DNA of 64,000 nt from an uncultured Verrucomicrobiota bacterium (GTDB lineage: Bacteria; Verrucomicrobiota; Kiritimatiellia; RFP12; UBA1067). Shown one piece after another: positions 11,765 to 36,594 of this stretch. The position numbers and the translations under genes are program-made. The number at the start of each line of letters is the position of its first letter. The first letter of the stretch is position 1. The stretch is taken from assembly GCA_947305775.1 (NCBI GenBank), contig CAMZEN010000008.1, positions 2,646-66,645 on the forward strand, written 5' to 3'. A model generated the notes under the pieces. The model worked only from the letters and a program-made list of their open reading frames with translations, had not been told where the DNA came from and searched no databases.

Positions 11765-12967
11765 TTACTTCTTTATTACATCCTTTATGACATCCTTGGC
11801 CTTGACGGTGCAGAAACGGATGTCTTTTTCGCCGGAGCCTTCGAAAACGACCCCCACATCGGCCGGTTCGCCCTTTGTTTTCGCCGGCATCAGGCAAATG
11901 TCGCTGTATGATGCGCGCCCGGGCTCAATCGTCAGGCCATCATTCCATGTTTGCCCGTCGTCCCAGCTTGTGCGGAGCGTCAGGTTGCTCCTGCCGCCTG
12001 CGTTGCAGTTCGAGAAGATGAGGATTTCATCGGGGTACTTCTGGTCGCCAACCTTCTTGCCCGCGTACTTCTTGCCCAAAGGATACGACATTATCTGCGC
12101 ATTGCACGCGCCGTCGTTAAGCTTTGTGTCGGACCAGTGGTCCCAAGTTTCGCCCTTGTCGTTGCTCTTGAATATCTCGCGCGCCCCAGCCTTCTTGCGC
12201 GAATTTATCATAAGCCCGCCGTCCGAAAGTTCGACAACCTTGCATTCGTCGCCTGGTTCCTTCGTAGGCTTGCCGTAGGCCTTCCACGTCTCGCCGCCGT
12301 CTTCGCTGCCGAACAGCGCCACCTGCTTGCCGACCCACACGATCGTATGGAGCAACGTGCCATCCTTCGTCTGCGTGCCGGAGCCGGAGGTGATGAACAC
12401 AAAGCCGTTCTTCGGCCAGCCCGCCGGCCTTATGCCGGCCGTGATTTCTTTCGGTTCGCCCCAGGTCTTGCCGTTGTCGGTCGATACCTGCACATACTGT
12501 TTGTATATGCCGGCTTCCTTGACATACTCCGCCACGTTGTAGAAGAGGAATATCTTCTTGTTCTTCTGGTCAACGATGAAGCTGGGGTCGCTGCCGGCCC
12601 ACTTTTCCTCGTCGTTCCACGTCCACTCGTGCGAATACACAGACGGCGTCCACTTTTTGCCGCCATCGGAGCTGGTGCGTACCGCTATGTTGATTCTCTG
12701 ATAGTCGCTCTTTGGACCGCCCTTGCGGTTTAGGTCGTATATGTGGTCCTCTCGCGCATCGCACGCCGCAACAAGCGTCTTGCCGTCCGGCGCCATGCAA
12801 AGCGCAGGAATGCGGTAAGTGTTGATTCCCGCGTCGCCAGCCTGCCACAATACTACTTGCTTGGACGCGGCAGATTTCGGCTGCTTGCCGCCGCCATCCT
12901 TTTTCGGCGCACCATGAACAACCATCGCCGCCGCCACCGCCGCCAAAAGAATGATTTTCGTTTTCAT
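11765..12967 (-). CDS. exo-alpha-sialidase (GH33)
   Basis: RIP motif (NTYRIPAL). Five Asp-box/BNR repeats (SSDGGKKW, STDNGKTW, SEDGGETW, SNDKGETW, SWDDGQTW). Start set at MKTKIILLAAVAAAMVVHG (signal peptide) because the -10 element sits 8 nt upstream. Confidence 0.85.
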   Translation of the reverse strand: MKTKIILLAAVAAAMVVHGAPKKDGGGKQPKSAASKQVVLWQAGDAGINTYRIPALCMAPDGKTLVAACDAREDHIYDLNRKGGPKSDYQRINIAVRTSSDGGKKWTPSVYSHEWTWNDEEKWAGSDPSFIVDQKNKKIFLFYNVAEYVKEAGIYKQYVQVSTDNGKTWGEPKEITAGIRPAGWPKNGFVFITSGSGTQTKDGTLLHTIVWVGKQVALFGSEDGGETWKAYGKPTKEPGDECKVVELSDGGLMINSRKKAGAREIFKSNDKGETWDHWSDTKLNDGACNAQIMSYPLGKKYAGKKVGDQKYPDEILIFSNCNAGGRSNLTLRTSWDDGQTWNDGLTIEPGRASYSDICLMPAKTKGEPADVGVVFEGSGEKDIRFCTVKAKDVIKDVIKK

Positions 12968-12974
12968 GCCGCAT

Positions 12975-12983
12975 ATTATATCA
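12975..12983 (-). promoter_or_regulatory. extended -10 promoter element TGATATAAT; implies a leaderless sialidase mRNA
   Basis: Reverse complement of plus attatatca. The last T of the -10 is 8 nt from the A of the ATG at 12967, and there is no SD. Confidence 0.5.
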
Positions 12984-13047
12984 AATCCTCCGCCGCGGGC
13001 GTAATGCAAAATCAATGGCATTTCTGATTGAGCACGGCGAAAGAATA

Positions 13048-13056
13048 TGGTAAAAT
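13048..13056 (+). promoter_or_regulatory. extended -10 promoter element TGGTAAAAT (kinase cluster)
   Basis: Context aagaatatggtaaaat, 72 nt upstream of the ATG at 13128. Confidence 0.5.
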
Positions 13057-13127
13057 TATGACACTTGCGTTACAAGACTCTTGTGTCAACGTGAAGCAAA
13101 GAGAATTTGCGATCGAAAGGGTGATGG

Positions 13128-16010
13128 ATGGAACAGCATATTGATAGCGGGGTTAAACTTGGGCGATATCTGTCGCCTTTGTCCGTGTGGGCTTTGTCGT
13201 TTGGCTGTGCGGTGGGCTGGGGCGCGTTCATCATGCCCGGCACGGCCTTTCTGCCTGTGGCGGGCCCGCTCGGTACGCTGATAGGCCTGAGCGTCGGCGC
13301 GGCGGTGATGTTCCTGATAGGGCGCAACTACCATTATCTCATACAGCACTTCCCCGACTCCGGCGGCGCATACTGCTACGTCAAGCGCGTCTGCGGCAAC
13401 GACCACGGCTACATCTGCGGCTGGTTCCTCATACTCACCTACGTCGCGATCGCCTGGGCGAACGCCACGGCCCTCGCCCTCGTCGGGCGAAACCTGATTG
13501 GGGGGGTGTTCAGCTTCGGCTTCCACTACAAAGTAGCCGGCTTCGACGTCTACGCCGGCGAAATCATTCTGTCGGCCCTGGTCGTCGCCGCGATATGGGC
13601 CGTGTTCATGTGCGGCAGGCGCCTGGCGGCGCGTTTGCAGACGGTTTTCGCGATTGTGCTTCTGGCCGGCGTCGCCATCTGCTTCGCGGCGGCCCTCGCC
13701 GGGCACGACGGCGGCCTCGCGACGCTGACCCCGGCCTTTTCCGCCAAGGGGAACCCGGTGCTGCAGGTGTTCGGCATCATCGCCCTCGCTCCGTGGGCGT
13801 TCATCGGTTTCGAGTCCATCTCGCACTCGGTCGAAGAATACGACTTTCCGCGCTGGAAGACGGTCGGCATAATCGTCTCGGCGCTCGCGTCCTCGGCGTT
13901 CGCCTACATCGCGCTTGCCTTCGTGGCGGCCTCGGCGCAGCCGGAAGGGTTCGCCGGCTGGCGCGACTATCTGGCGAACCTGGGCTCGATGGACGGAATC
14001 GAGGCCGTGCCCGTGTTCTATGCCGTCAAGGCGGCGCTCGGCTCCGCCGGGCTGGCGATACTGGGCCTTGCCACGTTCGCCGCAGCCGTCACGGGCCTGA
14101 TAGGCACCACCGTCGCGTCGAGCCGCCTGCTCTACTCGATGGCCCACGACGGTCTTCTGCCGGAATTCTTCTCGAAGCTCGACAAGGACCACGCCCCCGG
14201 GAACGCGATCGTCGTCATTCTCGCTTCCGCATGCCTGGTGCCGTTCGTGGGGCGCACCGCGGTCAGCTGGATCGTGGACATAACGGCCGTCGGCGCCAGC
14301 GTCGTATACGGCTACGTTTCGTTCTGCACGTTCAGGGTGGCGAAAGACGAAGGCCGCCGCTACGTGATGGCGAGCGGCGTCGCCGGGCTTGTAGTGGCGT
14401 CGCTCTTCATGGTCTACTACCTGATGCCGAACTTCTGGGTGGTCGATGCGCTCGCGACGGAATCGTACTTCATCCTTGCGATCTGGAGCATCCTGGGGGT
14501 GCTGGTGTTCCGCAACGTATTCCGCCGCGACCACTCGGGCCGCATCGGGGCGTCGACGGCGGCATGGATCGTGCTCGTGTTCTTCGTGTTCTTCTCGGGC
14601 CACATGTGGGACCGCCAGATGACGCGCGACCTCACGAACATCACCGTGACCGAGATACACGAGCACATTGAAGAGATGAAGAACCCCGATCACGACGACG
14701 AAGGGTGCGACTTCCTCGAAAAGCAGAAGGAAAGAATCGACGACACCCTTACCCACTACAACCTCATACAGGTGCTGCTGGTGGTGATCGCGCTCGGGAT
14801 AATGTACAACATCTACACCATCATCTCGAAGCGCGAACACCAGGCGGCGAAGGCCAAGGCCTACTTCTTCTCGACGATAAGCCACGACGTGCGGACGCCG
14901 CTGAACGCCATAGTCGGCTTCTCCCAGATGCTCAAGCTCGGTTTCAAGACGAAGAAGGAGAGCGACGCCGCCGTCGATTCGATATTGGTGAGCAGCAAGG
15001 CCCTGCTGGGGCTGATAAACGACATACTCGATCTGTCGCGCTGCGAAGTCGGCTCGGCGGAAGTCTCGGTCGCCCCAACCGAATGCCGCCTGCTGATGCA
15101 CGAGATCGTAGAGTCGTTCCGCGTGGCTTCGGCCGACAAGAAGGTCGAGATAAGGGACTCCATCGAAGAGATGCCGCCGCTGCTCGTCGACCACATGCGC
15201 TTCAGGCACGTCGTGTTCAACCTGATGTCCAACGCGGTGAAGTTCACAGAAAAGGGCTTCATCGAGCTTCGCGCCAAGTTCGATCCGGGCGAGGAGGTCG
15301 GAACCGGCACCCTGCGCGTGGAGCTGCAGGATACAGGCGTGGGGATAAGCGCCGAGGACCAGAAGCACATCGACTCGCCCTACGAGCAGACCGACAACAA
15401 GCTCGCCCGCCACAGCGGAACAGGCTTCGGCCTCGCCGTGGGCCGCCAGTTCGTCGAGGCCATGGGCGGCAAGCTGACGGTGAAGTCAGCGGTCGGCAAG
15501 GGCACAACGTTCTACATCGACATACCTCAGGTGAAGATCGCGCAGCAGATCGAGCCCGTGCACACAATCGTTGAAGTGCTGCACGAGCTAAAGCCGAGCG
15601 AGGCGGCAAAGCCGAGGATCATGCTTGTGGACGACTCGAAGATGAACCTTACCGTTCTTAAGTCGCTCATGAAGCGGCTCGGCGACTTCGACATCGAAAC
15701 CGCGATGGACGGCAAGGAGGCTCTCGAAAGGATAATGCGTACGGACCTGCCGAAGTTCGATGTCATACTCACCGACATGTGGATGCCGGAGTTGGACGGC
15801 GAAGGCCTGGCCAAGGCGATACGCGCGGACGAGCGTTTCTCGAATCTTCCGGTCTACGTCATCACCGCGGACGTGGAGCTCAAGGAGACTTACGCGGAGA
15901 AGCAGTTCGACGACATACTTCTCAAGCCCGTGACCATAGACGGTCTTCGTTCGCTTCTGCCCGCGTACGTACTCGGGGGGGGGGGAGTGACCTGTGAGAC
16001 CGCCCCGTAA
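13128..16010 (+). CDS. APC-type permease domain fused to a hybrid histidine kinase (permease-HisKA-HATPase-REC, 960 aa)
   Basis: N-terminal ~470 aa is polytopic with an APC-like start LSVWALSFGCAVGWGAFIMPG. H-box STISHDVRTPLNAI (~nt 14880). HATPase GTGFGLAVGRQFVEAMGG. Receiver IMLVDDSKMN...DVILTDMWMPELDG...LLKP. Confidence 0.75.
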   Translation: MEQHIDSGVKLGRYLSPLSVWALSFGCAVGWGAFIMPGTAFLPVAGPLGTLIGLSVGAAVMFLIGRNYHYLIQHFPDSGGAYCYVKRVCGNDHGYICGWFLILTYVAIAWANATALALVGRNLIGGVFSFGFHYKVAGFDVYAGEIILSALVVAAIWAVFMCGRRLAARLQTVFAIVLLAGVAICFAAALAGHDGGLATLTPAFSAKGNPVLQVFGIIALAPWAFIGFESISHSVEEYDFPRWKTVGIIVSALASSAFAYIALAFVAASAQPEGFAGWRDYLANLGSMDGIEAVPVFYAVKAALGSAGLAILGLATFAAAVTGLIGTTVASSRLLYSMAHDGLLPEFFSKLDKDHAPGNAIVVILASACLVPFVGRTAVSWIVDITAVGASVVYGYVSFCTFRVAKDEGRRYVMASGVAGLVVASLFMVYYLMPNFWVVDALATESYFILAIWSILGVLVFRNVFRRDHSGRIGASTAAWIVLVFFVFFSGHMWDRQMTRDLTNITVTEIHEHIEEMKNPDHDDEGCDFLEKQKERIDDTLTHYNLIQVLLVVIALGIMYNIYTIISKREHQAAKAKAYFFSTISHDVRTPLNAIVGFSQMLKLGFKTKKESDAAVDSILVSSKALLGLINDILDLSRCEVGSAEVSVAPTECRLLMHEIVESFRVASADKKVEIRDSIEEMPPLLVDHMRFRHVVFNLMSNAVKFTEKGFIELRAKFDPGEEVGTGTLRVELQDTGVGISAEDQKHIDSPYEQTDNKLARHSGTGFGLAVGRQFVEAMGGKLTVKSAVGKGTTFYIDIPQVKIAQQIEPVHTIVEVLHELKPSEAAKPRIMLVDDSKMNLTVLKSLMKRLGDFDIETAMDGKEALERIMRTDLPKFDVILTDMWMPELDGEGLAKAIRADERFSNLPVYVITADVELKETYAEKQFDDILLKPVTIDGLRSLLPAYVLGGGGVTCETAP
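15975..15985 (+). repeat. G11 homopolymer at the junction of the two permease-kinase genes
   Basis: Read directly (ctc ggg ggg ggg gga). Encodes the GGGG near the C-terminus of the first gene and merges into the GGAG SD, 7 nt before the GTG at 15994. Confidence 0.9.
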
Positions 16011-19000
16011 TCTCTCGGCCCTCGCTGCTTGGGGCCTTTCGTTCGGCTATGCCGTCGGTTGGGGTGCGTTCGTCATGCCGGGCGCGAAGTTCCTGCCCGA
16101 TGCCGGCCCGCTCGGCACCATCCTCGGCGTAGTCGCGGGCGCCATCGCGATGGTGGTGATAGGTTGGAACTACTATCGCATGGTTTCGTCGTCGCCCGGG
16201 CCGGGCGGCGCCTACACATACGCGACAAAGGCTTTCGGCTACGACTACGGCTTCCTTACCGCGTGGTCGCTGTCGCTCGCATACATGGCGATACTCTGGG
16301 CCAACGCGACCGCGCTGGTGCTGCTTGTGCGCTACGTGTTCGGCGACGCCTTCCAGTTCGGCTGGCACAGCAAAGTCGCCGGCTTCGACGTCTACTTCGG
16401 CGAGGCGCTTCTGTCGATGTGCATGATGGTGTTCGCGGGCGTATGCTGCCTGTTCCACCGCCGGTTCTCCGGACGCATCCAGGCGACATGCACCGTGTTC
16501 ATGATCGTTTCTATAGCGGTATGCTTCGGCGTCGCGGCCTTCAAGCATCAGGGCGGCATGGCGGCGATGGCCCCCGCGTTCTCGGCGACCGGCGGGGCCG
16601 ACAAGCTGGTGCAGACGCTGCGCATACTCGCGATGATGCCCTGGGCGTTCGTCGGCTTCGAGGCCGTGACCCACTCATCGCTTGAGTTCAAGTTCCCGAT
16701 GAAGCGGCTATGGCCTGTCATGCTGTTTGCGATACTGGCCTCTGCCGCCGCCTACATAATGCTCACGCTGATGCCCGTCCTCGCGCACCCTGACGGGTAT
16801 GTGACGTGGAGTGAATACATACGCGACTGCTCGAACCTCGACGGCCTGAGCACGATGCCGACCTTCGCCGCCGTCCAGAAGACGATGGGAGGCTTCGGCG
16901 TAGCCCTGCTCGCGGCCACGATGGTCGCCGCAATACATACGGGCATCGTCGGCACCATCGTCGCAATGAGCCGGCTTCTGTACACGCTTTCGTCCGAGGG
17001 GCTGCTGACCAAGGCCCGCTGGCTGGGGCAGCTCGACGGCAACGGCTCTCCGCGAAACGCGATAATATTCGTGGTGGGCATCTCGCTCTTCATTCCGTTC
17101 TTCGGGCGGACGGTGATAGGCTGGCCGGTGGATGTGTCGAGCATCGGCGCGGCGGTTGCGTTCTGCTGCACGTCGGCGGCCGCATGGAAGTTCGCGCGGA
17201 GCAACGGCGACAGGGTAACGATGGTCACCGGCCTGGTCGGCGTAGTAATGTCGGTGCTGTTCTGCCTGCTGCTGCTCGTGCCGAACTACCTTTCGACAAG
17301 CGTCCTTTCGGCCGAGGCGTATCTCGTGCTCTCGTTCTGGTGCATAATCGGCTTCATGCTGTACCGCCAGGTGTTCACGAAGGATGCCCACCAGCGCTTT
17401 GGGCGTTCGCCAATAGTGTGGACGGGCATCGTCATCATGATCTTCTTCGCGTCGCTCATGTGGGTGCGCCTCTCTTCGCAGTCCGCGACGGCAAAGGCGG
17501 TCGATTCGATAGTGGCGTTCTCGGAGGACCACTGCAGGCGGATGCATGGAGTTGTCAATCACGAAGAGCTGCACCACGAGCAGGAGTTCGTATCCGAGAA
17601 GATGGATGCGCTCAACAGCGATCAGCTTGTGAACGACATCGTGCAGATGGGGTTGCTTTCGTTTTCGCTAGTCATAATGTTCAACCTCTACTCCATACAG
17701 CGCCGCCGCGAGGAGCGCCTTGAGGTCGCCAACGCAAAGGCCGAGGCGAGGGACCGCGCCAAGAGCGCGTTCCTCTCCAGCATAAGCCACGACATCCGAA
17801 CCCCGATGAACGCCATCATCGGCTACATCGAGCTAGCGAAGCGAAAAGGCACCACCGAGGCGAAGATGCGCGAATACCTTGCGAAGACGGACGTCGCAAG
17901 CCACCATCTGCTGGCGCTCTTGAACGACGTACTCGAAATGAGCCGCATAGAGTCCGGCAAGATCGAGCTGGAGCCTGTGCCGGTCGATTTGGCGGCGGTG
18001 TTCGACGAGGTTGCAGCCATCTTCTCGGCCCAGATGGCGGAGAAGCACCTCGACTTCAGGCTCGACATGTCCGGCGTAAGCCACACGTGCGTCATGTGCG
18101 ACAGGGCGCGCCTGAACCGCATAATCCTCAACCTCATCAGCAACGCCTACAAGTTCACGCCGTCCGGCGGGAGCATAACCATGTCGCTGGCCGAGTTCGA
18201 GAGCGGACGCGAGAACGCCGCCAACTACGAACTTTGCGTAAGGGATACCGGCATCGGCATGAGCGAGACGTTCATGAAGCATGTGTTCGACGCGTTCGAG
18301 CGCGAGCGCAGCACCACCGTGAACGGCATAGAGGGCACAGGCCTCGGAATGCCGATCACGAAAGCCATCGTGGAGCTGATGAAAGGCACGATAACGGTGG
18401 ACTCCGAGGTCGGCAAGGGAACCGTGTTCACGATCCACCTGTCCCTGCCGTTCGCGCATGGCGTGCCTCAGAAGGTATCGCCCGTCGCCGCCGCAGCCGT
18501 GCCGCCGCTTCAGCCGATGGACCACTCGAAGATGCGCCTGCTGCTCGTGGAGGACAACGAGGTGAACCGCGAAATCGCCTCCACGCTGCTGGAGCAGGCC
18601 GGCTTCAATGTCGATGTCGCGGAGAACGGCAAGATCGCCGTCGACAAGTTCGCCAACGCCGGGGAAGGCTATTACAACGCGATATTGATGGATGTCCGCA
18701 TGCCGGTGATGGACGGCTACAAGGCTACGCGCACCATACGGTCCATGGAGCGCGGCGGCAAGCTGCGCGTGCCGATCATAGCGCTGTCGGCGAACGCCTT
18801 CGAGTCAGACGTTAAGGACGCGCTCTCGGTCGGCATGGACGCGCACATCGCGAAGCCGATAAAGCTGCCGCTGCTCATGAAGGTGCTCGAAGACCTGTTG
18901 AGGCGCACCGCCGCCACCGCAGACTCCGGGCTGAAGGGCGACGTGCTGAATTGCCTGGCGAAGATGGGCTGCGACATCGAGACCGCGCTGAAGGAGACGT

Positions 19001-19290
19001 ATATCGGCAACGTGGCGTTCTACTTGAAGATGCTGGCCAAGCTGCCGCAGAACACGGCCATAGCGCAGATGCGCAAGTCGTTCGATACCTTCGACGCGGT
19101 CGGGCTTTTCGAGGCGTCACACAGCCTGAAGGGCATGTATGCTTCGCTCGGCCTGACGCCGCTTCATGCGATCTGCAGCGAAATCGTAGAGATATCCCGC
19201 AATGGAGGTCTTGACGGTGTGAGCCCGCTCCTCACGAAGCTCGAGAAGATGCACGCTGAGGTTGTAGGGCTTGCTAAGATGCAATCTTGA
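15994..19290 (+). CDS. APC-type permease domain fused to a hybrid histidine kinase with HPt (permease-HisKA-HATPase-REC-HPt, 1098 aa)
   Basis: Paralogue of the upstream gene (LAAWGLSFGYAVGWGAFVMPG). H-box SSISHDIRTPMNAI. HATPase GTGLGMPITKAIVELMKG. Receiver LLLVEDNEVN...AILMDVRMPVMDG...HIAKP. HPt motif SHSLKG. Confidence 0.75.
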   Translation: MRPPRNLSALAAWGLSFGYAVGWGAFVMPGAKFLPDAGPLGTILGVVAGAIAMVVIGWNYYRMVSSSPGPGGAYTYATKAFGYDYGFLTAWSLSLAYMAILWANATALVLLVRYVFGDAFQFGWHSKVAGFDVYFGEALLSMCMMVFAGVCCLFHRRFSGRIQATCTVFMIVSIAVCFGVAAFKHQGGMAAMAPAFSATGGADKLVQTLRILAMMPWAFVGFEAVTHSSLEFKFPMKRLWPVMLFAILASAAAYIMLTLMPVLAHPDGYVTWSEYIRDCSNLDGLSTMPTFAAVQKTMGGFGVALLAATMVAAIHTGIVGTIVAMSRLLYTLSSEGLLTKARWLGQLDGNGSPRNAIIFVVGISLFIPFFGRTVIGWPVDVSSIGAAVAFCCTSAAAWKFARSNGDRVTMVTGLVGVVMSVLFCLLLLVPNYLSTSVLSAEAYLVLSFWCIIGFMLYRQVFTKDAHQRFGRSPIVWTGIVIMIFFASLMWVRLSSQSATAKAVDSIVAFSEDHCRRMHGVVNHEELHHEQEFVSEKMDALNSDQLVNDIVQMGLLSFSLVIMFNLYSIQRRREERLEVANAKAEARDRAKSAFLSSISHDIRTPMNAIIGYIELAKRKGTTEAKMREYLAKTDVASHHLLALLNDVLEMSRIESGKIELEPVPVDLAAVFDEVAAIFSAQMAEKHLDFRLDMSGVSHTCVMCDRARLNRIILNLISNAYKFTPSGGSITMSLAEFESGRENAANYELCVRDTGIGMSETFMKHVFDAFERERSTTVNGIEGTGLGMPITKAIVELMKGTITVDSEVGKGTVFTIHLSLPFAHGVPQKVSPVAAAAVPPLQPMDHSKMRLLLVEDNEVNREIASTLLEQAGFNVDVAENGKIAVDKFANAGEGYYNAILMDVRMPVMDGYKATRTIRSMERGGKLRVPIIALSANAFESDVKDALSVGMDAHIAKPIKLPLLMKVLEDLLRRTAATADSGLKGDVLNCLAKMGCDIETALKETYIGNVAFYLKMLAKLPQNTAIAQMRKSFDTFDAVGLFEASHSLKGMYASLGLTPLHAICSEIVEISRNGGLDGVSPLLTKLEKMHAEVVGLAKMQS

Positions 19291-19340: not shown

Positions 19341-20879
19341 ATGAAAGAGTTCGAAGGCTACCGCATTATTTTGGCGGAAGACGAGGAGATCGACCGCGAG
19401 GTCGTGGCAAACCTTGTCGAAGACCTTGGCGCGACGTGCATCACCGTAAAGGACGGTGACGAACTGCTGGAAAGGCTGAACGGCCCGGACGGGGGCTCGA
19501 TAGACCTCGTTCTGACCGACATAAACATGCCGCACACAGACGGAATCGAGGCCTGCTCAGAGTTCCGGTCGTCGATGAATCCCAAGGCGAAGACCATGCC
19601 GATAATAGGGATCTCGGCTGACACGAACCAGGGCATATTCGACAGGGCGATCTCGGCCGGAATGAACAGCATGACGCTGAAGCCGCTGACGAGGGAGACC
19701 CTTCGCGCGCATTTCCACATAATGCTGAAGGACAACATGGCGAACGCCGTCTTCAGCGAGCGCGTTCAGCAGGCTTTGGCGAAAAGCCTGTTCTTCTCGA
19801 CCGTCAGCCACGATCTCAGGACTCCGCTGAACGCGATAATCGGATTCTCCGAGATGCTCAAGCAGGGTTTCGAATCTCCGTCGGAGCGGGAATTCGCCAT
19901 CGACTCGATTATCATGAGCAGCCGCGAGATGCTTCAGCTCGTCAACGACATACTCGACCTCTCGAAGCTGGAGCAGGGGCGCCTCACCATAGAGCCCGAG
20001 CCGACCGACGTCGCCATGCTTCTGAGGGAGATCGTGGCCTCCTTCGGCATAACCCAGCAGAAGCCGGGCCTTGAGATGCTATGCCATGCCGATGGTTTGC
20101 CGTCGCTTGTCATCGACCCGCACCGCATGAGGCAGATAGCCTTCAACCTCGTAAGCAACGCCGTAAAGTTCACGAATAAGGGCTATGTCGACATCAGGGC
20201 TTCGTTCACGCCGGACGCCGACGGCGCAAAGGGCGTCTTCCGCATGGAGGTCAAGGATACCGGCTGCGGCATAAGCGCCGAAGACCAGAGGAAGCTGGCC
20301 CGGCCGTTCGTGCAGGTCGGCGACAAGGTCGCGAAGCGCGGCGGAACCGGCCTCGGGCTTCACATATGCCGCTGGATCGCGAAGACCATGGGCGGCAGCA
20401 TGACGATATCTTCGGTGCTTGGCGAAGGCACGACAATCGCAATCGTAGTGCCCGGCGTAAGGGTCGCGGCGACCGGTTGGTCGGCGGGTGGCGACGCCGC
20501 CTCTAAAGAACCGCTCAAGACGGACAAGAGCATACTCATCGTGGACGACGCCAAGCTGAACCAGATCGTCCTGAAGAACATGTTCGGCAGGCTTGGCGCG
20601 ACCAACCTGACGATCGTATCGAACGGACGCGAGGCGCTGGACGTTCTGAAGGCGCGCGGCGCAGGGGCGTTCGACCTTGTGCTGACCGACGCCTACATGC
20701 CTGAGATGGGCGGACTTGAGCTAATCGAGGTGATCAGGGCCGACCCTGCGCTGGCGAAGATGACAGTGTATCTTTTCACCGCCGAGGTCGAAATGAACGA
20801 GACCTACGCGGAAAATGGCTTCGACGGCATAGTACTGAAGCCTGCCACACTTGAATCGCTAAAGGAGTTGCTGAAATGA
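19341..20879 (+). CDS. soluble hybrid histidine kinase, REC-HisKA-HATPase-REC (512 aa)
   Basis: No TM segments. N-terminal receiver IILAEDEEID...LVLTDINMPHTDG. H-box STVSHDLRTPLNAI. GGTGLGLHICRWIAKTMGG. C-terminal receiver ILIVDDAKLN...LVLTDAYMPEMGG...VLKP. Confidence 0.85.
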   Translation: MKEFEGYRIILAEDEEIDREVVANLVEDLGATCITVKDGDELLERLNGPDGGSIDLVLTDINMPHTDGIEACSEFRSSMNPKAKTMPIIGISADTNQGIFDRAISAGMNSMTLKPLTRETLRAHFHIMLKDNMANAVFSERVQQALAKSLFFSTVSHDLRTPLNAIIGFSEMLKQGFESPSEREFAIDSIIMSSREMLQLVNDILDLSKLEQGRLTIEPEPTDVAMLLREIVASFGITQQKPGLEMLCHADGLPSLVIDPHRMRQIAFNLVSNAVKFTNKGYVDIRASFTPDADGAKGVFRMEVKDTGCGISAEDQRKLARPFVQVGDKVAKRGGTGLGLHICRWIAKTMGGSMTISSVLGEGTTIAIVVPGVRVAATGWSAGGDAASKEPLKTDKSILIVDDAKLNQIVLKNMFGRLGATNLTIVSNGREALDVLKARGAGAFDLVLTDAYMPEMGGLELIEVIRADPALAKMTVYLFTAEVEMNETYAENGFDGIVLKPATLESLKELLK

Positions 20880-22659: not shown

Positions 22660-23577
22660 ATGTTTTGCTGTTTGATGCTGGCGGCGTCGCTTCTGGTGAT
22701 GGAGAAAAACGGGGTCGAGATCAAGATCGACGGCGGGCCGGAGACCATCGACCCCGGCAGGAGTGTGTTCCTTGCCGTCACGATAACGCATTCTCGCGAA
22801 GTGAAGGTGGTGCATCCGGACTTCCGCGATCGCGTTCGCGGCTTTTCGCTCGCCGAAGATTTCGCGGAGGAGCCTAGCACGACCAAGGATGGCCGCGTGG
22901 TCGAGACCGTCAACTGGAAGCTGATACCCGAGCCTTGCGCCGAAGAGTACAAGTTGGCGCCGTTTCTCGTAAAGGCGTCGCCGCGTCTGCTTTCATCGCT
23001 GGCGGACGACGGAAGCCTTTCGTTCGTCGCAGGACCTGTGCGTTTCGCGAATCCGCCGCCGCGCGAACCGGTTACAGGCGGCATGGAGGTCGATCCGAAG
23101 AAGGATATGCCTCCGCTAAGCTGGAAGCTTGTTGGCAGGATCGCCGCGGCGTTGGCGGCGGTCTGCTTGCTGGTCTGGGCGGTCTGGAAGGGCGTTTGCT
23201 ATGCTGCGCGGCGGATCAAGGAGCATCGCATGAGCCCGATAGAGCGCGCATGGGCGGAGCTTGACCGCCTTCTCAAGAAGGGGCTGCCGGGGCGCGGCAG
23301 ATACAAGGACTTCTATGTGGAGTTGACGATGGTCGTTCGCAGGTATGTGCAGCGCAAGTACGGAATTCGCGCCCCGCACCTGACGACCGAGGAGTTCTTG
23401 CGCGAATGCGGCGCTTCGGAAGGCCGCATATGCGATACCGCCGCGCTCAGGAAGTTCCTTGAGAGCGCCGACATGGTGAAGTTCGCCGGTGTGGAGGCGA
23501 CGCCGGAAATGGCGGACGATGCGACGGACTCTGCGCGCGGATACCTGAAGGGCGATTCGAAGGAGGTCGCAAGGTGA
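22660..23577 (+). CDS. membrane protein with DUF4381-like C-terminal region (Bat-cluster type)
   Basis: A central TM (IAAALAAVCLLVWAVW) is followed by ERAWAELDRL...FYVELTMVVRRYVQRKYGIRAPHLTTEEFL...ADMVKFAG, the DUF4381 pattern. Confidence 0.5.
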   Translation: MFCCLMLAASLLVMEKNGVEIKIDGGPETIDPGRSVFLAVTITHSREVKVVHPDFRDRVRGFSLAEDFAEEPSTTKDGRVVETVNWKLIPEPCAEEYKLAPFLVKASPRLLSSLADDGSLSFVAGPVRFANPPPREPVTGGMEVDPKKDMPPLSWKLVGRIAAALAAVCLLVWAVWKGVCYAARRIKEHRMSPIERAWAELDRLLKKGLPGRGRYKDFYVELTMVVRRYVQRKYGIRAPHLTTEEFLRECGASEGRICDTAALRKFLESADMVKFAGVEATPEMADDATDSARGYLKGDSKEVAR

Positions 23578-24620
23578 AGTTCGCGAGCCCCATGATGCTT
23601 CTTATGGCGCTGCCGCTTGCGTTTGCCGCGTGGCGACTTCTGAGGTGCGCGAAAAGATCGGGGCTGAGGTTCCCTGCGATATCGCGCCTTCCGTCCAGGG
23701 CGGCCGGGTGGAGGGCGAAGGTCGCCGCCGCTACGCCTTTCATCATGCTTGCGGGGCTTGCGATGCTGATTGTGGCGGCGGCGCGTCCGCGCACGCCCCT
23801 CGCGCACGAGAGGAAGTCCGTGGACGCGATAGCGATTGCGATGACGGTGGATGTCTCGGGCTCGATGGACGCGCTCGACCTTACGCCGAAGGGCGTGCAG
23901 TATTCGCGTGAGACGACGCGCCTTGCGGTGGTGAAGAAGCTTTTCGCCGAATTCGTCGAGAAGCGTCCGGACGATCTCATCGGCCTTGTCACGTTTGGCG
24001 GCTATGCCGCCACGCGTTCGCCGCTGACCGCAGACCACGATGCGCTTCTCAACGTGCTCAAGGGCGTCGAAATACCTTCCGTCGCCTTGGATTCCAACGG
24101 ACGCGCAATAGCGCAGGACGAGCAGATGACGGCGATAGGGGATGGCCTCGCAACCGCCCTAGCCCGGCTGAAGGACGCGAAACCGAAGTCGAAGATAGTC
24201 ATTCTTCTTTCGGACGGCGTCAGCAACACTGGCGCGGTAGAGCCTGACGAAGCGGCAAAGGCGGCGGCGAAGATGGGCGTGAAGGTGTATGCGATCGGCG
24301 TCGGCACAAAATCGCGCAACACGCCTGTATTCGGGCGCGACTTCTTCGGGCGCACAATCATTCAGCGTGCCGACATGACCTTTGACGAACGGCAGCTTAA
24401 GTCGATAGCGTCCGTTACCGGCGGCACATACTTCCCGGTCAACGACCGCGACTCGCTCGAAAAGGCTCTTGAGGAAATCGACCAGCTTGAGACCACTGCG
24501 CTCGATGCAGATACCTATGACCGTTGGGAGGAACACTTTGTGGCGTTCCTTGTTTTGGGAGCGCTTCTGGTGTTTGCCGCGGTCTCCCTTTCCATGGCGG
24601 CATCGCGTCGTATGGCATGA
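23574..24620 (+). CDS. VWA domain protein, BatA-like
   Basis: GTGA overlap with the upstream gene. N- and C-terminal TM segments. MIDAS VDVSGSMDALD. ILLSDGVSNTG. YAIGVG. Confidence 0.75.
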   Translation: MKFASPMMLLMALPLAFAAWRLLRCAKRSGLRFPAISRLPSRAAGWRAKVAAATPFIMLAGLAMLIVAAARPRTPLAHERKSVDAIAIAMTVDVSGSMDALDLTPKGVQYSRETTRLAVVKKLFAEFVEKRPDDLIGLVTFGGYAATRSPLTADHDALLNVLKGVEIPSVALDSNGRAIAQDEQMTAIGDGLATALARLKDAKPKSKIVILLSDGVSNTGAVEPDEAAKAAAKMGVKVYAIGVGTKSRNTPVFGRDFFGRTIIQRADMTFDERQLKSIASVTGGTYFPVNDRDSLEKALEEIDQLETTALDADTYDRWEEHFVAFLVLGALLVFAAVSLSMAASRRMA

Positions 24621-24666
24621 TACGACGCCAACCATAAACCCCTCGTTCCGTTGCTTAAAAGGAAAA

Positions 24667-24758
24667 GTTACAAAGTACTAGTACTTTTGGCCAAATGTAC
24701 TAGTACTTTTGCGCAAATGTACTAGTACTTTTGATCAAAAGTACTAGTACTTTGTAAC
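24667..24758. repeat. AT-rich palindrome array: 4 x GTACTAGTAC at exact 22-bp spacing (8 alternating 11-bp half units)
   Basis: Cores at 24675-84, 24697-706, 24719-28 and 24741-50. The spacers are also palindromic (TTTTGGCCAAA, TTTTGCGCAAA, TTTTGATCAAAA). The whole 92 bp is a near-perfect dyad (GTTAC...GTAAC) centred on GCGC at about 24711-14, with 4 mismatches in 46-bp arms. Confidence 0.9.
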
Positions 24759-24762
24759 TCAT

Positions 24763-24772
24763 GGTGCGCACC
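24763..24772. repeat. 10-bp perfect palindrome GGTGCGCACC
   Basis: Read directly. Lies between the palindrome array and the 22-bp direct repeats. Confidence 0.8.
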
Positions 24773-24816
24773 AGAGCTTCGAGGGGTGCGGGGTAGAGCT
24801 TCAAGGGGTGCGGGGT
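24773..24816 (+). repeat. 2 x 22-bp tandem direct repeat AGAGCTTC(G/A)AGGGGTGCGGGGT
   Basis: Units at 24773-24794 and 24795-24816 differ at one position. Same 22-bp period as the adjacent palindrome array. Confidence 0.9.
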
Positions 24817-24891
24817 AGCGGCAAAATAGGTGCCTTTGGGCATGGGGGATATTCCTATTATGATGGTCGCTTGCCGCCGATGCGGGCAATA

Positions 24892-24900
24892 TGTTATAAT
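24892..24900 (+). promoter_or_regulatory. extended -10 promoter element TGTTATAAT (aspS)
   Basis: Context caatatgttataat, 32 nt upstream of the ATG at 24932. AGGAG SD at about 24916-24920. Confidence 0.55.
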
Positions 24901-24931: not shown

Positions 24932-26737
24932 ATGCATCCATATCGTACCCATACATGCAACGAGCTCCGCGCCTCTGACGCGGGCAAGACCGTTCGTCTC
25001 TCCGGCTGGATGTTCCGCCTTCGCGACCATGGCGGAATCCTTTTCGTGGACCTTCGCGACCACTACGGCCTTACGCAGATAGTCGTCCATCCGAGCCGCA
25101 GCTTCTTCGGGCTTGTTGAGAAGGCGCACCTTGAGAGCGTCATCACCGTGACCGGCGAGGTGAAGCTGAGGACGCCCGATACCATCAACCCCGACCTTCC
25201 CACTGGCGAGATCGAGATCGAGGCCAACGAGCTTGTCATGGAGGCTGCGAGCGAGGTTACGCCCATCTACATCCCCGACGAGAAGGCCGACGAGAGCGAG
25301 GACGTGCGCCTCAAGCACCGTTACCTCGACCTTCGCCGCGAGAAGCTCCACAACAACATCATCCTTCGCTCGAACGTGATCAAGTTCCTGCGTGAGAAGA
25401 TGTGGGAGAAGGGCTTCAACGAGTTTCAGACTCCGATTCTGACCGCATCCTCGCCCGAGGGTGCGCGCGACTACCTTGTGCCGAGCCGCATCCATCGTGG
25501 TCAGTTCTACGCCCTGCCGCAGGCGCCGCAGATGTTCAAGCAGCTCCTGATGGTCTCGGGCTTCGACAGGTATTTCCAGATTGCGCCGTGCTTCCGCGAC
25601 GAGGCCGCCCGCGCCGACCGCTCGCCCGGCGAGTTCTACCAGCTCGATATCGAGATGAGCTATGTGACGCAGGACGAGATCTTCGCCGTCGTCGAGGACG
25701 TCGTTTCGGCGACCTTCCGCAAGTTCTCCACCTGGACCTGCAACGAGGCCCCGTGGCCGCGCATCAAGTATCGCGACGCGATGATGGTCTACGGCAGCGA
25801 CAAGCCCGACCTCAGGAACCCGCTCAAGTGGCAGGACATGTCGGACTTCTTCCGCCGCGCGAGCTTCAAGGCGTTCGCCTCGTGCGTCGAGCAGGGCGGA
25901 CTCGTCAAGGGCCTTCTCGTCAAGGGAATCGTCGGTGTCGAGACGCGCACGTGGTTCGACAAGCGCGAGCACAACGTGAAGGAGAACGGCGGCAAGGGCC
26001 TCGGCTACATCAGCTGGACCAAGGAAGGCGAGCTCAAGGGCCCGATCGCGAAGTTCCTCACGCCCGAGCAGCTTGAGGAGATGAAGCAGATCGTCGGCAT
26101 GGAGCCGGGCGACGCGCTCTTCTTCATGGCCGCTCCGGTGGACGAGTGCCACAGGCTCTCCGGGCTTGTCCGCACCGACATCGCCGACCACCTCACGAAC
26201 GACATCCGCGAGCACAACTGCTACAAGTTCTGCTGGATCGTCGACTTCCCGTTCTTCGAGAAGGACCCCGAGACCGGCAAGATCATCTTCTCGCACAACC
26301 CGTTCTCGATGCCCCAGGGCGGACTTGAGGCGCTCAACACGAAGGCGCCGCTGGACGTGGTCGCATACCAGTACGACGTCGTCTGCAACGGTATCGAGCT
26401 TTCGTCCGGCGCTATCCGCAACCACCGCATCGATATCATGGAGAAGGCGTTCGAGATCGCCGGTTATTCGCCTGATGTCGTCAAGCAGAAGTTCGGCTGC
26501 CTCTACAACGCGTTCCGCTTCGGCGCGCCGCCCCACGGCGGAATCGCCCCGGGCGTCGACCGCATGGTGATGCTTCTCACCGATACGCCCAACATCCGCG
26601 AGGTGATTGCGTTCCCGATGAACCAGAAGGCGCAGGACCTCATGATGAACGCGCCGAACTTCGTCACCGAGCAGCAGCTCCGCGAGCTTCACATCAAGAT
26701 TCGCGGAACCGGCGCGGAGGCGGCGGCCCAGGCGTGA
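24932..26737 (+). CDS. aspS: aspartate--tRNA ligase (601 aa)
   Basis: [13 protein letters not shown]...[26 protein letters not shown] (OB fold). Class II motifs [46 protein letters not shown]. Start set at the Met after the SD. Confidence 0.95.
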
Positions 26738-34611: not shown

Positions 34612-36594
34612 ATGGTGACGATAAAGAAGTCCTCGAAGGGGACTGGCAAAAAAAAGTCGTCTTCGCCTGCGAAAGCGAAGAAATCGTCTGCGGTTAATAT
34701 CCGCAGTGCGTCGATTTCTGAAGATGATGTGCTTGATTCCGATGATCTTCCGCCAGATGATGCGACTATAGAGGCGGAGGTTGCTTCTCTTGACGCCGAC
34801 AAGCTTGCCGCCGAGGTCGAGCAGCAGGAGGGCAAGGTTTCGGAAGAGGACGGCGAGGTTGTGCTGGATGAGGCTCCGCTTCCGGCGTTTGCCGCGGCCG
34901 ACGAGGCCATTGATGATGTCGACGCAATCCTGCCTTCGATGGAAGGCATGTCCATTCTGCGCGAGACGGAGCTGAACGACGTGATAAACGACGTAAAGCG
35001 CCGCAGTGAAGTGAACGGAGGCTATGTAACCTACGAGGAGCTCAATCAGATACTCCCTCAGAACATAGTCGATGCAATCCAGTCCGACAGATACCTTAAG
35101 ATTCTTGAGGCGCTTGGCGTGCACGTCATCCGCGAGGAGGACGTCAAGAAGTATATAGAGGCCAAGAACGCAAAGGCGTCGGATCCCAAGAGCCGTGCTG
35201 CGGAGATGATCGAAGATCCGATCCGCATGTACCTCCATCAGATGGGCCAGGTGCAGCTTCTTTCGCGAGACGAGGAGGTTGACATCTGCCAGACGATTGA
35301 AGACGCCGAAGTGAAGATTCGCGACATGTTCAATCGCTTTCTCTTCGCTCCGCCGATGTATGCGTCCATGCTCGACAAGCTGGAGGGCCAGAGCGAACGC
35401 TTCGACCGCATCGTTACCGATAAGTTCGAGGACAATCGCGACGCCTACATGGCGCTCATCCCCGGCTTTCGCAAGGATCTCAAGGTTATTGAGAAGCGCC
35501 TCAGGGAGGCGAGCGACAAGTATCTTTCGACCATCGCCCAGAAGAAGCCCTCGCCGGCTGCTGTGCGCGGTGCCGAGAAGACGCTTTCGAACGCCAGAAG
35601 CGCGCTCAGAACGTGTTTCGACGACATGAGCTTCAAGCAGAAGGTTCTTGAGACCCTTTGCATGGAGGCCGACGAGAGGATTTACCTCCCGTACCGTTCG
35701 TTCGTAAAGAAACAGGCCGACCTCATGCAGACCAAGGCATCCAAGAAGCGCGAACGAGACCTAGCCGTTCTGCGCGAGAAGATGGCCGGTCTGGAAGTCC
35801 TGTTCGGCATGCCGCCGCAGGAGTTCATGGCGACGTTCTCCGAGCTCAGAAAGGTGCTCAAGAACGGTCAGGTCGCCCGTACCAAGATGGTTGAGGCCAA
35901 CTTGAGGCTGGTCATCTCGATCGTCAAGAAGTACATGAATCGCGGACTCAGCTTCCTGGATCTCATACAGGAGGGCAACACCGGCCTGATGAAGGCCGTC
36001 GAGAAGTTCGAGTACAAGCGAGGCTACAAGTTCTCGACATACGCGACGTGGTGGATCCGGCAGGCCGCCACGCGTGCGATTGCCGACCAGGCGCGGACCA
36101 TCCGCATACCGGTTCACATGATCGAGACGATCAACAAGCTGATGCGTGTGCAGAAGAAGCTCATCCAGACGCTTGGCCGTGAGCCGAACGAGAACGAGCT
36201 CGCCGCGGAAATGAACATGCCGCTCGACCAGGTCAAGGCCGTCAGGAAGATGGCCCAGCAGCCGATTTCGCTGCAGTCCAAGGTCGGCGACAACGACGAC
36301 GCGCATTACGGGGACTTCATCCCCGACCTGTCGAGCGAAAATCCCTTCGAGGTCACGGAGGGGCATCTCCTTAAGGAACGCATCAGGGAGATACTTGAAA
36401 CACTGACCGACCGCGAACGGCAGGTTGTTGACTTCCGTTTCGGTCTTACCGACGGTTGCAGCCGCACTCTTGAGGAGGTTGGGCGGCTCTTCAACGTCAC
36501 CCGCGAGCGAATCCGTCAGATTGAGGCGAAGGCGCTCCGCAAACTACGCCATCCGAGCCGCATGAAGTCGCTCGGAGATTACAGAAACAGTTGA
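34612..36594 (+). CDS. rpoD: RNA polymerase primary sigma factor (sigma-70)
   Basis: Acidic N-terminus. Region 2 [12 protein letters not shown]. Region 4 [32 protein letters not shown]. Confidence 0.95.

What the first reader, a model, noticed from the sequence alone, without database searches (positions are those of the whole stretch)
24667..24816. Phased array of four perfect GTACTAGTAC palindromes (22-bp spacing) plus two 22-bp direct repeats upstream of aspS
SEEN:
- In an otherwise GC-rich genome, a 92-bp AT-rich block contains four identical 10-bp palindromes centred exactly 22 bp apart, about two helical turns, so all lie on one DNA face.
- The 12-bp spacers are themselves palindromic. 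The block is therefore eight alternating 11-bp half-units (CAAAnGTACTA / TAGTACTTTTG).
- The whole block is a 46-bp-arm dyad with 4 mismatches, bracketed by GTTAC...GTAAC.
- It is followed by the palindrome GGTGCGCACC and then two 22-bp direct repeats (one mismatch), with the same 22-bp period.
- The block sits 47 nt after the batA-like stop and about 135 nt upstream of the aspS -10 element.

INFERENCE: Possible roles are:
- a cooperative multi-dimer operator;
- a centromere-like (ParR/parC-style 11-bp iteron) or other nucleoprotein assembly site;
- a cruciform-forming element;
- a genome-specific repeat (REP/MITE).

No nearby gene in this window encodes an obvious cognate DNA-binding protein, and I cannot assign the motif to a known regulator.
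Basis: seen in the sequence. Interest (0 to 1): 0.75.

Follow-up and report, generated by a model that had tools for sequence, protein, structure and literature searches.

The report
Phased-palindrome interspersed repeat in Kiritimatiellae
The four evenly spaced palindromes are real, but they are one copy of a short non-coding repeat scattered between unrelated genes in a few uncultured gut Kiritimatiellae, not a control site made for the aspS gene; the conserved part looks like a docking platform for a DNA-binding protein that is still unidentified.

Summary
Four perfect GTACTAGTAC cores lie exactly 22 bp apart inside a 47-nt-arm dyad. Four GGTGC motifs follow in the same 22-bp register, so the structure is about eight 22-bp units (24667-24850).

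It is not an aspS operator. The closest aspS and batA orthologues (89-96% aa) have short intergenic regions and no array. The same element occurs between other gene pairs:
- family A: hipA-like|rpe and uvrC|mreB;
- family B, diverged: at least four further contexts, with a 155-bp core 100% identical between two contigs of one MAG.

A and B share only the AAAGTACTAGTACTTT cores, the strict 22-bp phase, G-rich 22-bp repeats and an outer dyad bracket. Units are gained or lost in whole steps. One copy carries the array inverted in place.

Best reading: a new, low-copy, MITE/BIME-like interspersed repeat whose core is a phased platform for a dimeric helix-turn-helix protein. The same 10-mer, in pairs, sits beside GntR-TetR fusion regulators in Actinobacteria and resembles the TrpR operator core. 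The binder, the mode of spread and any effect on aspS are unknown. An RNA or cruciform hairpin role is not excluded.

Interest is moderate.

The parts
24605..24628 (+). Small hairpin GCGTCGTAT...ATACGACGC overlapping the batA-like stop codon (TGA 24618-24620). It is part of the native 3' end of the upstream gene, not of the repeat.
   Evidence: Read from the sequence and paired in the RNA fold. Relatives' batA 3' flanks differ immediately after the stop.
24633..24666 (.). Left flank of the repeat (CATAAACCCCTCG...AGGAAAA). It contains ACCCCTCG (24638-24645), which mirrors CGAGGGGT on the right side.
   Evidence: Homology with copy L129 extends to 24633. The symmetric 8-mers lie 71 bp on either side of the dyad axis.
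24667..24758 (.). Core array: four 22-bp units, each with the perfect 16-bp palindrome AA(A/T)GTACTAGTACTTT. Cores are at 24675-84, 24697-706, 24719-28 and 24741-50. The array is bracketed by GTTAC/GTAAC, with the dyad axis at 24712/24713.
   Evidence: An nhmmer profile of the array finds only the known element copies at E<1e-15 in 1.36 Mb of held sequence.
24763..24850 (+). Four G-rich 22-bp units in the same register as the palindromes: GGTGCGCACC (itself a palindrome), GGTGCGGGGT, GGTGCGGGGT and GGTGCCTTTG. The window copy has one more unit than copies L128 and L129.
   Evidence: The alignment with L128 and L129 shows a single AGRGNTWCRARGGGTGCGGAGT unit there.
24871..24900 (+). Native aspS promoter-like site (TTGCCG, 18 nt, TG-TATAAT). 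It is not part of the repeat.
   Evidence: Relatives' aspS upstream regions have the same TGNTATAAT layout without the array.
24932..26737 (+). aspS (aspartate-tRNA ligase, 601 aa), the downstream gene.
   Evidence: Pfam tRNA-synt_2, GAD and anticodon OB domains. Homologues reach 96% identity and are named Kiritimatiellae.
23574..24620 (+). batA-like VWA-domain gene, last gene of the DUF58 / unknown / VWA operon upstream.
   Evidence: Pfam VWA, VWA_2. Orthologues at 89-93% identity.

Best explanation
The block is the core of one copy of a short (about 160-220 bp), non-coding, low-copy interspersed repeat. The repeat is found in a subset of uncultured, probably gut or rumen, Kiritimatiellae.

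**Position here.** This copy lies between the end of the batA-like operon and the native aspS promoter.

**Construction.** The element is built from 22-bp units.
- Four units carry the perfect palindrome AAAGTACTAGTACTTT.
- Three or four adjacent units carry a G-rich motif (GGTGCGGGGT in this family).
- The whole element is a long imperfect palindrome.

**Inferred mechanism.**
- The four palindromes are docking sites for four dimers of a helix-turn-helix protein encoded elsewhere.
- The dimers are placed two helical turns apart, on nearly the same DNA face, so they can bind cooperatively or wrap the DNA.
- The G-rich repeats bind a second protein or a second domain.
- The assembly serves the element's own recombination or propagation, or acts as a barrier between neighbouring transcription units.
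- Any effect on aspS is a by-product of where the copy landed.

**Shown:** repetition, dispersal, absence from orthologous sites, modular 22-bp construction, conservation of the palindromes between two diverged families, unit gain and loss, and in-place inversion.

**Inferred:** protein binding, the type of protein, and the purpose.
For: 1. **Dispersal.** The same architecture occurs elsewhere.
   - Family A, 83-95% identical to the window over 135-163 bp:
     - L128, hipA-like -> element -> rpe;
     - L129, uvrC -> element in the opposite orientation -> mreB.
   - Family B:
     - L017, L041 and L091 come from one MAG, and the 155-bp core is 100% identical between L017 and L041;
     - L119, L121, L125 and L126 come from one metagenome;
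     - at least four contexts are represented: yitT-like, GH92/BspA-LRR, smc, UDG/Macro.

2. **Not conserved at the orthologous sites.**
   - aspS orthologues at 92-96% aa identity have 94-128 bp upstream regions without the motif.
   - batA orthologues at 89-93% have 25-60 bp downstream.
   - About 370 kb of related contigs contain no copy.

3. **Selective conservation.** A and B differ in spacers, brackets and flanks. They keep the following:
   - AAAGTACTAGTACTTT in four copies, three in L121;
   - the exact 22-bp phase;
   - G-rich 22-bp repeats with the shared motif GGnnGGGG(A)GT;
   - an outer complementary bracket, GTTAC/GTAAC in A against GAGTGAA/TTCACTC in B.

4. **Repeat dynamics.**
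   - L121 lacks exactly one unit.
   - The window has one extra G-rich unit.
   - With flanks matched, the L129 array has 9 mismatches to the window array but 2 to its reverse complement.

5. **GTACTAGTAC as a protein site elsewhere.**
   - In 7 of 10 actinobacterial loci tested, a pair of this 10-mer lies beside a divergent GntR + TetR_N + TetR_C_1 regulator gene.
   - TetR genes flank such pairs in L011 and L082 and a YtrA-like GntR in L042, identified by eye.
   - A TrpR-like ORF lies about 170 bp from a pair in L022.
   - The 10-mer is the CTAG-centred version of the TrpR operator TGTACTAGTTAACTAGTACA (PMC2504314; natural operator in PMC11748629).
Against: - **No binding protein identified.** No helix-turn-helix regulator, transposase or recombinase gene lies within about 3 kb of any copy.
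- **Mobility not shown.** No target-site duplication or clear terminal inverted repeat was found, and no filled/empty pair at one orthologous site was recovered.
- **Copy number poorly known.** At least 3 copies are seen in one fragmented MAG and 1 in this 64 kb.
- **Periodicity could be history, not function.** The 22-bp period could simply reflect origin by tandem duplication.
- **Hairpin reading remains open.** Both families can fold into long hairpins, and the outer bracket is complementary in both despite different sequences. Selection could therefore act on a single-stranded hairpin rather than on duplex binding sites.
- **The regulator leads come from other phyla.**
Confidence: 0.6

Rival explanations
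1. **RNA or single-strand hairpin element (REP/ERIC/Correia-like role).** The repeat acts when transcribed as the 3' end of the upstream operon. It would form a long stem-loop that stops read-through, protects the mRNA from 3' exonucleases or is cut by RNase III. Alternatively it acts as a DNA cruciform or hairpin during replication or transposition.
For: - The window copy folds at -98.4 kcal/mol (z -8.0) as RNA and -35.7 (z -11.4) as DNA.
- Family B also folds well (z -5.0).
- The outer bracket differs in sequence between families but stays complementary.
- Symmetry extends to +/-71 bp.
- No canonical intrinsic terminator lies between batA and the aspS promoter.
- Six of seven classifiable contexts place the element after a gene's 3' end, ahead of a co-directional gene.
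- The in-place inversion is what hairpin-mediated template switching would produce.
Against: - A hairpin does not need the central spacer to be 12 nt, yet every spacer is exactly 12 nt in both families.
- A hairpin does not explain the G-rich units continuing the same 22-bp register.
- Family B spacers are not self-complementary, giving 6x6 internal loops.
- L121, with three cores, breaks the symmetry yet persists.
- The cores are invariant rather than co-varying, which points to sequence-specific rather than structure-specific selection.
- No U-tract follows the stem.
Confidence: 0.2
2. **Site-specific recombination site.** The palindromic cores would be crossover sites and the one-sided direct repeats accessory sites, by analogy with Tn4430-type resolution sites or FRT (recalled from prior knowledge, not checked here). 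A recombinase encoded elsewhere would use dispersed copies to invert or shuffle chromosome segments.
For: - The layout is palindromic sites plus direct repeats on one side.
- One copy has its array inverted in place.
- One copy has lost exactly one unit.
- Copies sit at synteny breakpoints. The batA|aspS junction is unique to this genome.
- The family B core plus a 95-bp promoter segment is followed by three different genes in L041, L119 and L126.
Against: - No recombinase gene lies near any copy.
- Gene order in these genomes is shuffled at many junctions that carry no element, so the breakpoint association is weak.
- Unit loss and inversion are equally explained by slippage and by recombination within a palindrome.
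Confidence: 0.1
3. **Dedicated cooperative operator.** A regulator would control aspS or the batA-like operon through this array.
For: - Four identical palindromes lie on one helical face 125 bp upstream of the aspS -35.
- The G-rich repeats abut the promoter.
Against: - The array is absent upstream of aspS and downstream of batA in the closest relatives.
- It is present next to unrelated genes: rpe, mreB, smc, an LRR surface protein gene.
- It occurs in either orientation relative to the downstream gene.
Confidence: 0.05
4. **Plasmid-type centromere or iteron origin.** The element would be a ParR/parC-like centromere, or an iteron replication origin embedded in the chromosome.
For: - It has tandem phased repeats.
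- It has 22-bp direct repeats next to an AT-rich block.
Against: - No par, rep or mobile-element genes occur in the window or near any copy.
- Both sides are housekeeping genes.
- Several dispersed copies occur in one genome.
- There is no similarity to any plasmid or phage record.
Confidence: 0.02

Closest known systems
REP/BIME elements of enterobacteria
   Same: - Short non-coding intergenic repeats.
- Built as mosaics of palindromic units in alternating orientation with short linkers.
- Unit number varies.
- They bind host proteins and affect mRNA ends (from established knowledge).
   Different: - No GTAG-headed 20-40 bp imperfect palindrome.
- Units are a strict 22 bp with a perfect 16-bp AT-rich palindrome.
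- Copy number appears low.
- No RAYT-type gene was seen.
- No sequence similarity.
Palindromic MITE-like repeats (Neisseria Correia elements, ERIC, and MITE-derived hairpins)
   Same: - About 100-200 bp imperfect palindrome.
- Dispersed between genes in either orientation.
- Strong hairpin when transcribed.
- Rfam's only sub-threshold hits are long microRNA-precursor hairpin families (mir-559, mir-548, MIR1120). From memory, some of these derive from MITEs.
   Different: - No target-site duplication, defined terminal repeat or parent insertion sequence was found.
- The inside is a phased tandem array, not unique sequence.
- The Rfam scores (51 against a gathering score of 95) reflect hairpin shape only.
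Modular or tandem interspersed repeats (pneumococcal BOX elements; mycobacterial MIRU)
   Same: - Dispersed intergenic elements made of modules.
- One module is tandemly repeated a variable number of times.
- Whole-unit gain and loss occurs between copies.
   Different: - Unit length and sequence are unrelated.
- Those families lack perfect palindromes in helical phase.
Multi-dimer operator arrays (phage 186 CI, ArgR ARG boxes, tandem TrpR binding)
   Same: - Identical palindromic sites about two helical turns apart, suited to cooperative binding or DNA wrapping.
- The core GTACTAGTAC is the CTAG-centred form of the TrpR operator half (PMC2504314, PMC11748629).
   Different: - Those arrays are single-locus operators next to the genes they control.
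- TrpR sites repeat every 8 bp, not 22.
- No cognate regulator gene was found here.
- This array is a dispersed repeat.
GTACTAGTAC operator pairs beside actinobacterial GntR-TetR fusion regulators
   Same: The same perfect 10-bp palindrome occurs in pairs 22-44 bp apart in promoter regions.
   Different: - Two sites, not four.
- Different flanks (CGTACTAGTACG rather than AAAGTACTAGTACTTT).
- Always next to the regulator gene.
- A different phylum.

Membership tests
MITE (miniature inverted-repeat transposable element) | Short, non-coding, several copies per genome in unrelated sites | tested here: met
   - The element is 155-300 bp.
- Three copies occur in MAG CAMZDY01, with 100% identity over 155 bp between two of them.
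- Three family A contexts and at least four family B contexts were found.
MITE (miniature inverted-repeat transposable element) | Terminal inverted repeats at the element ends | tested here: inconclusive
   The element is a long imperfect palindrome with symmetric ACCCCTCG/CGAGGGGT at +/-71 bp. Its exact ends could not be fixed, because no filled/empty site pair was found.
MITE (miniature inverted-repeat transposable element) | Target-site duplication flanking each copy | tested here: not met
   No direct repeat flanks the shared boundaries in alignments of A copies or B copies. The boundaries are only approximate.
MITE (miniature inverted-repeat transposable element) | A parent element with the same ends and a transposase gene | not testable with these tools
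   No transposase lies within about 3 kb of any copy.
REP/BIME | 20-40 bp imperfect palindromic units with a conserved GTAG head, hundreds of copies, RAYT transposase in the genome | tested here: not met
   - The units are 22 bp with a perfect GTACTAGTAC core and no GTAG head.
- Only 1 copy occurs in 64 kb and 0 in about 370 kb of relatives.
- The presence of a RAYT gene is not testable.
TrpR operator | CTAG-centred GNACTAGTNC motifs repeated every 8 bp, next to trp/aro genes, with trpR in the genome | tested here: not met
   - The motif itself matches (PMC2504314).
- Spacing is 22 bp, not 8.
- The flanking genes are batA-like and aspS.
- tblastn with E. coli TrpR finds nothing in the window or in any Kiritimatiellae locus held.
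ParR/parC-type centromere or iteron origin | Repeat array adjacent to partition (parM/parR, parA/parB) or rep genes on a replicon that needs them | tested here: not met
   - Pfam scans of most large ORFs between about 7 and 56 kb of the window, and of copy flanks, show none.
- There are no plasmid or phage matches.
Any Rfam RNA family | Score at or above the family's gathering threshold | tested here: not met
   - No hit at gathering thresholds was found in the window, apart from two tRNAs, or in L017, L041 and L091.
- The best sub-threshold hit is mir-559, 51 bits against 95.
Conserved cis-regulatory site of aspS or the batA-like operon | Presence at the orthologous position in related genomes | tested here: not met
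   Loci L114-L118 and L135-L147 lack it.

The most novel reading that the evidence does not exclude
The element is a propagating protein-docking cassette. This 8 x 22 bp module would carry a four-dimer platform for one helix-turn-helix protein and an in-phase array for a second factor, and would copy itself next to housekeeping promoters. In doing so it would either bring unrelated genes (aspS, rpe, mreB, smc, surface proteins) under one regulator, or supply the crossover sites behind the frequent operon shuffling and local inversions in these Kiritimatiellae genomes.
Probability: 0.15. Interest if true: 0.7.

Novelty: new variant of a known kind. Interest (0 to 1): 0.42.

Why it matters
Interspersed repeats have hardly been described in Kiritimatiellae, which are abundant but almost uncultured gut and rumen bacteria. 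This family has an unusually regular build: perfect palindromes in strict helical phase, with a second repeat array in the same register.

Two diverged families keep only those features. That argues for a specific protein partner, which gives a concrete target for DAP-seq or pull-down with proteins expressed from MAGs.

If the partner is a regulator or a recombinase, the repeat would be a bacterial case of a mobile sequence spreading binding sites or driving rearrangements.

For annotation, the practical point is that this block should not be read as an aspS operator.

Tried and rejected
- **Source contig.** An exact look-up of the window's AspS to find the source contig returned nothing on record. 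An earlier attempt failed on a frame error.
- **Plasmid and phage records.** blastn of 24630-24830 against both collections gave no match.
- **Viral contigs.** A scan for two palindromes 22 bp apart found four unrelated contigs with other GTACTAGTAC arrangements. ORFs near one were listed but not pursued.
- **Rfam.** Gathering and permissive thresholds gave only sub-threshold generic hairpin matches.
- **Literature.** Searches for the 14-mer, and for the 10-mer together with the word 'operator', returned no paper. Nothing relevant was found for Kiritimatiellae repeats.
- **Replication origin idea.** This arose from a strand switch and a cumulative GC-skew minimum near 13 kb. It was rejected as an explanation for the array because no dnaA or dnaN lies there, only sensor kinases and a BNR-repeat protein.
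- **Ancestral site idea.** A family B copy also lies near a batA operon (L119). The idea was rejected because intermediate relatives have compact junctions without the array, and L119 has an extra gene in between.
- **Common neighbouring gene.** A search across all copies found none.
- **Diverged copies.** An nhmmer profile search found none beyond the known ones.
- **Empty site at uvrC|mreB.** The search through MreB homologues failed because that adjacency is not present in the relatives recovered.
- **XerCD dif site.** The resemblance of GGTGCGCACC to the XerC arm of dif, recalled from memory, was dropped because no XerD-like arm follows.

Full report
**1. The observation**

The sequence at 24667-24816 is as described.
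- GTACTAGTAC occurs four times, at 24675, 24697, 24719 and 24741.
- It occurs nowhere else in the window, even with one mismatch allowed. Shuffles give 0.31 expected, and none of 100 reaches four.
- The block is a dyad with 47-nt arms, 91% complementary and no gap.
- The two 22-bp direct repeats differ at one base.

- GGTGCGCACC is centred exactly 22 bp after the last palindrome.
- GGTGC recurs at 24763, 24785, 24807 and 24829, in the same register. Chance expectation is zero.

The periodic structure is therefore about eight 22-bp units, 24667-24850. Dyad symmetry also reaches outward to ACCCCTCG and CGAGGGGT, each 71 bp from the axis.

**2. Setting**

- Upstream is a DUF58 / unknown / VWA (batA-like) operon ending at 24620.
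- Downstream is aspS, with its ATG at 24932, followed by an Rce1-like gene.
- aspS has a good promoter-like site at 24871-24900.
- AspS homologues reach 96% identity, and those that carry names are called Kiritimatiellae.
- Apart from rpoD (34612-36594), no helix-turn-helix regulator domain was found among the large ORFs scanned between about 7 and 56 kb of the window. Several two-component sensor kinases are present.

**3. It is not a conserved site of aspS or of the batA operon**

- Contigs carrying the closest AspS proteins (92-96% identity) have 94-128 bp upstream regions. These show the same TGNTATAAT promoter layout but no array, and different upstream genes.
- Contigs carrying the closest BatA proteins (89-93%) have 25-60 bp after the stop codon, followed by three different downstream genes.
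- The right edge of the periodic structure (24850) meets sequence resembling the relatives' native aspS upstream region.

The element therefore looks like an addition between two native segments.

**4. The same architecture exists elsewhere**

A scan of species-representative genomes for two palindromes 4-34 bp apart found three contigs of one MAG with four palindromes at 22 bp. That MAG is CAMZDY01, labelled Verrucomicrobia; its relatives share the bat operon with the window. A metagenome scan for three palindromes at 22 bp found seven more such contigs. They fall into two families.

*Family A* is the window type.
- L128 is 95% identical over 135 bp. L129 is 83% identical over 163 bp.
- The flanking genes are hipA-like and rpe in L128, and uvrC and mreB in L129. 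The L129 copy is in the opposite orientation to the downstream gene.

*Family B* has different spacers (TTTAGTGGAAAG) and bracket (GAGTGAA/TTCACTC).
- It has three G-rich 22-bp repeats (GGSYGGGGAGTAAG...) on the other side of the array.
- Its 155-bp core is 100% identical between two contigs of the one MAG.
- It occurs in at least four contexts: after a yitT-like gene, next to GH92 and a BspA-type LRR gene, upstream of smc, and near UDG/Macro genes.

No protein-coding gene is shared among the flanks. A profile of the array finds no further copy in 1.36 Mb of held sequence, about 370 kb of which is from Kiritimatiellae relatives. The family is therefore dispersed but low in copy number and patchy in distribution.

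**5. What is conserved**

Laid out in 22-bp register, A and B share four features.
- The 16-mer AAAGTACTAGTACTTT.
- The exact 12-bp spacer length, including the central spacer.
- G-rich repeats with the common motif GGnnGGGG(A)GT.
- An outer bracket that differs in sequence but stays complementary.

Everything else differs. Whole units are gained or lost: L121 has three palindromes, and the window has one extra G-rich unit.

With its flanks aligned to the window, the L129 array has 9 mismatches to the window array but only 2 to its reverse complement. L128 shows 1 and 9. The array has therefore been inverted in place in one lineage.

**6. How it may work**

Invariant cores with free spacers, a fixed two-turn phase that includes the central spacer, and a second motif in the same register are most simply explained by duplex DNA recognised by proteins. 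The model is four dimers on nearly one face, with a second factor alongside.

Independent support that GTACTAGTAC is a protein site:
- In Actinobacteria, 7 of 10 loci tested with a pair of this 10-mer have a divergent gene for a GntR + TetR_N + TetR_C_1 fusion regulator.
- By eye, TetR genes flank such pairs in L011 and L082, and a YtrA-like GntR in L042.
- A TrpR-like ORF lies near a pair in L022.
- The 10-mer is the CTAG-centred form of the TrpR operator (PMC2504314, PMC11748629).

These are leads from other phyla, not identifications.

The hairpin alternative is not excluded.
- The window copy folds with z -8 as RNA and z -11 as DNA.
- Family B folds with z -5.
- The complementary but different brackets look like compensatory conservation.

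A role as a recombination site is possible but has no recombinase to support it. Gene order in these genomes changes at many junctions that lack the element.

**7. Comparison with known systems**

By behaviour this is an interspersed intergenic repeat of the REP/BIME, Correia/ERIC, BOX or MIRU kind.
- It fails the specific REP tests: no GTAG-headed unit, and low copy number.
- It lacks demonstrable MITE hallmarks: no target duplication, no defined ends, no parent element.

It can therefore be filed only under the general kind. It matches no Rfam family, no plasmid or phage record, and no paper in the library.

**8. Verdict**

It is a new, architecturally unusual variant of bacterial interspersed repeats in an under-studied clade. 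A specific but unknown protein partner is the most likely reason for its conservation. Interest is moderate.

Noticed in passing
L043, L053, L112, L045, L054, L080, L002 (also L011, L082, L042): In Actinobacteria, pairs of perfect GTACTAGTAC palindromes 22-44 bp apart lie directly beside a divergent gene for a three-domain regulator (GntR wHTH + TetR_N + TetR_C_1, about 300-320 aa). This looks like a conserved autoregulatory operator of a dual-HTH fusion family. Related pairs flank plain TetR genes and a YtrA-like GntR gene.
   Followed up: partly
L022:1-430: A TrpR/YerC-like ORF (39% identical to E. coli TrpR over 84 aa) starts about 170 bp from a pair of GTACTAGTAC palindromes 24 bp apart, in an unclassified low-GC MAG.
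   Followed up: partly
L121:~10033-10070 and ~10330-10420; L125:~3300; L091:~1390-1426; L017:~40-60: A second repeat, the 31-bp perfect hairpin TTCGTCCATGGGGTCTGACCCCATGGACGAA, flanks family B copies, on both sides in L121. This suggests mosaic, BIME-like intergenic regions in that genome.
   Followed up: no
L013, L039, L067, L057, L019, L026, L106 (Bacteroidales/Paludibacter MAGs): Long tandem arrays with a 42-bp period, whose units carry the 20-bp palindrome CGTTCGTACTAGTACGAACG. They occur on several contigs per MAG. This is another dispersed repeat family built on the same 10-mer.
   Followed up: no
L007, L030, L070, L072, L098, L103 (one Candidatus Uhrbacteria MAG): Six contigs carry GTACTnnnGTACTAGTAC-N6-GTACTAGTACnnnAGTAC, a dispersed hairpin-like repeat.
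   Followed up: no
L036:760-797, L068:2175-2213, L096:3973-4010 (Bryobacterales MAGs): A conserved pair AAGTACTAGTACGAAA...TGAGTACTAGTACGATCTAGTCC, 28-29 bp apart, lies upstream of a roughly 505-aa gene in three MAGs. A third copy of the 10-mer lies about 2.7 kb away.
   Followed up: no
window:13128-16010 and 15994-19290 (+), then 19341-20879: Two adjacent large genes fuse an amino-acid permease (APC) domain to a histidine kinase and receiver domain (the second also has an Hpt domain). A receiver/kinase hybrid follows. This is an unusual transporter-like sensor architecture in tandem.
   Followed up: no
window:~12000-14000: Gene orientation switches from mostly minus to almost entirely plus strand, and cumulative GC skew has its minimum here. 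No dnaA or dnaN lies nearby.
   Followed up: partly
L148:9606-10000 and L150 (relatives of the L129 organism): dnaN-dnaA-gidA lie divergent from mreB across a 395-bp AT-rich intergenic region with DnaA-box-like TTATCAACA motifs. This is probably oriC in those Kiritimatiellae.
   Followed up: no
window:55005-56291, 36647-37114, 489-6614: - A hexokinase-family gene (Pfam Hexokinase_1/2).
- A small RRM-domain protein.
- A 2041-aa ORF on the minus strand that was not characterised.
   Followed up: no
L041:355-606, L119:8662-8906, L126:1859-2112: The family B core plus the next 95 bp, ending just after a TTGACG-17-TATAAT promoter, is shared by three contigs. The gene after the promoter differs in each: a giant ORF of more than 1600 codons, a small secreted-looking protein, and a BspA-type LRR protein.
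   Followed up: partly
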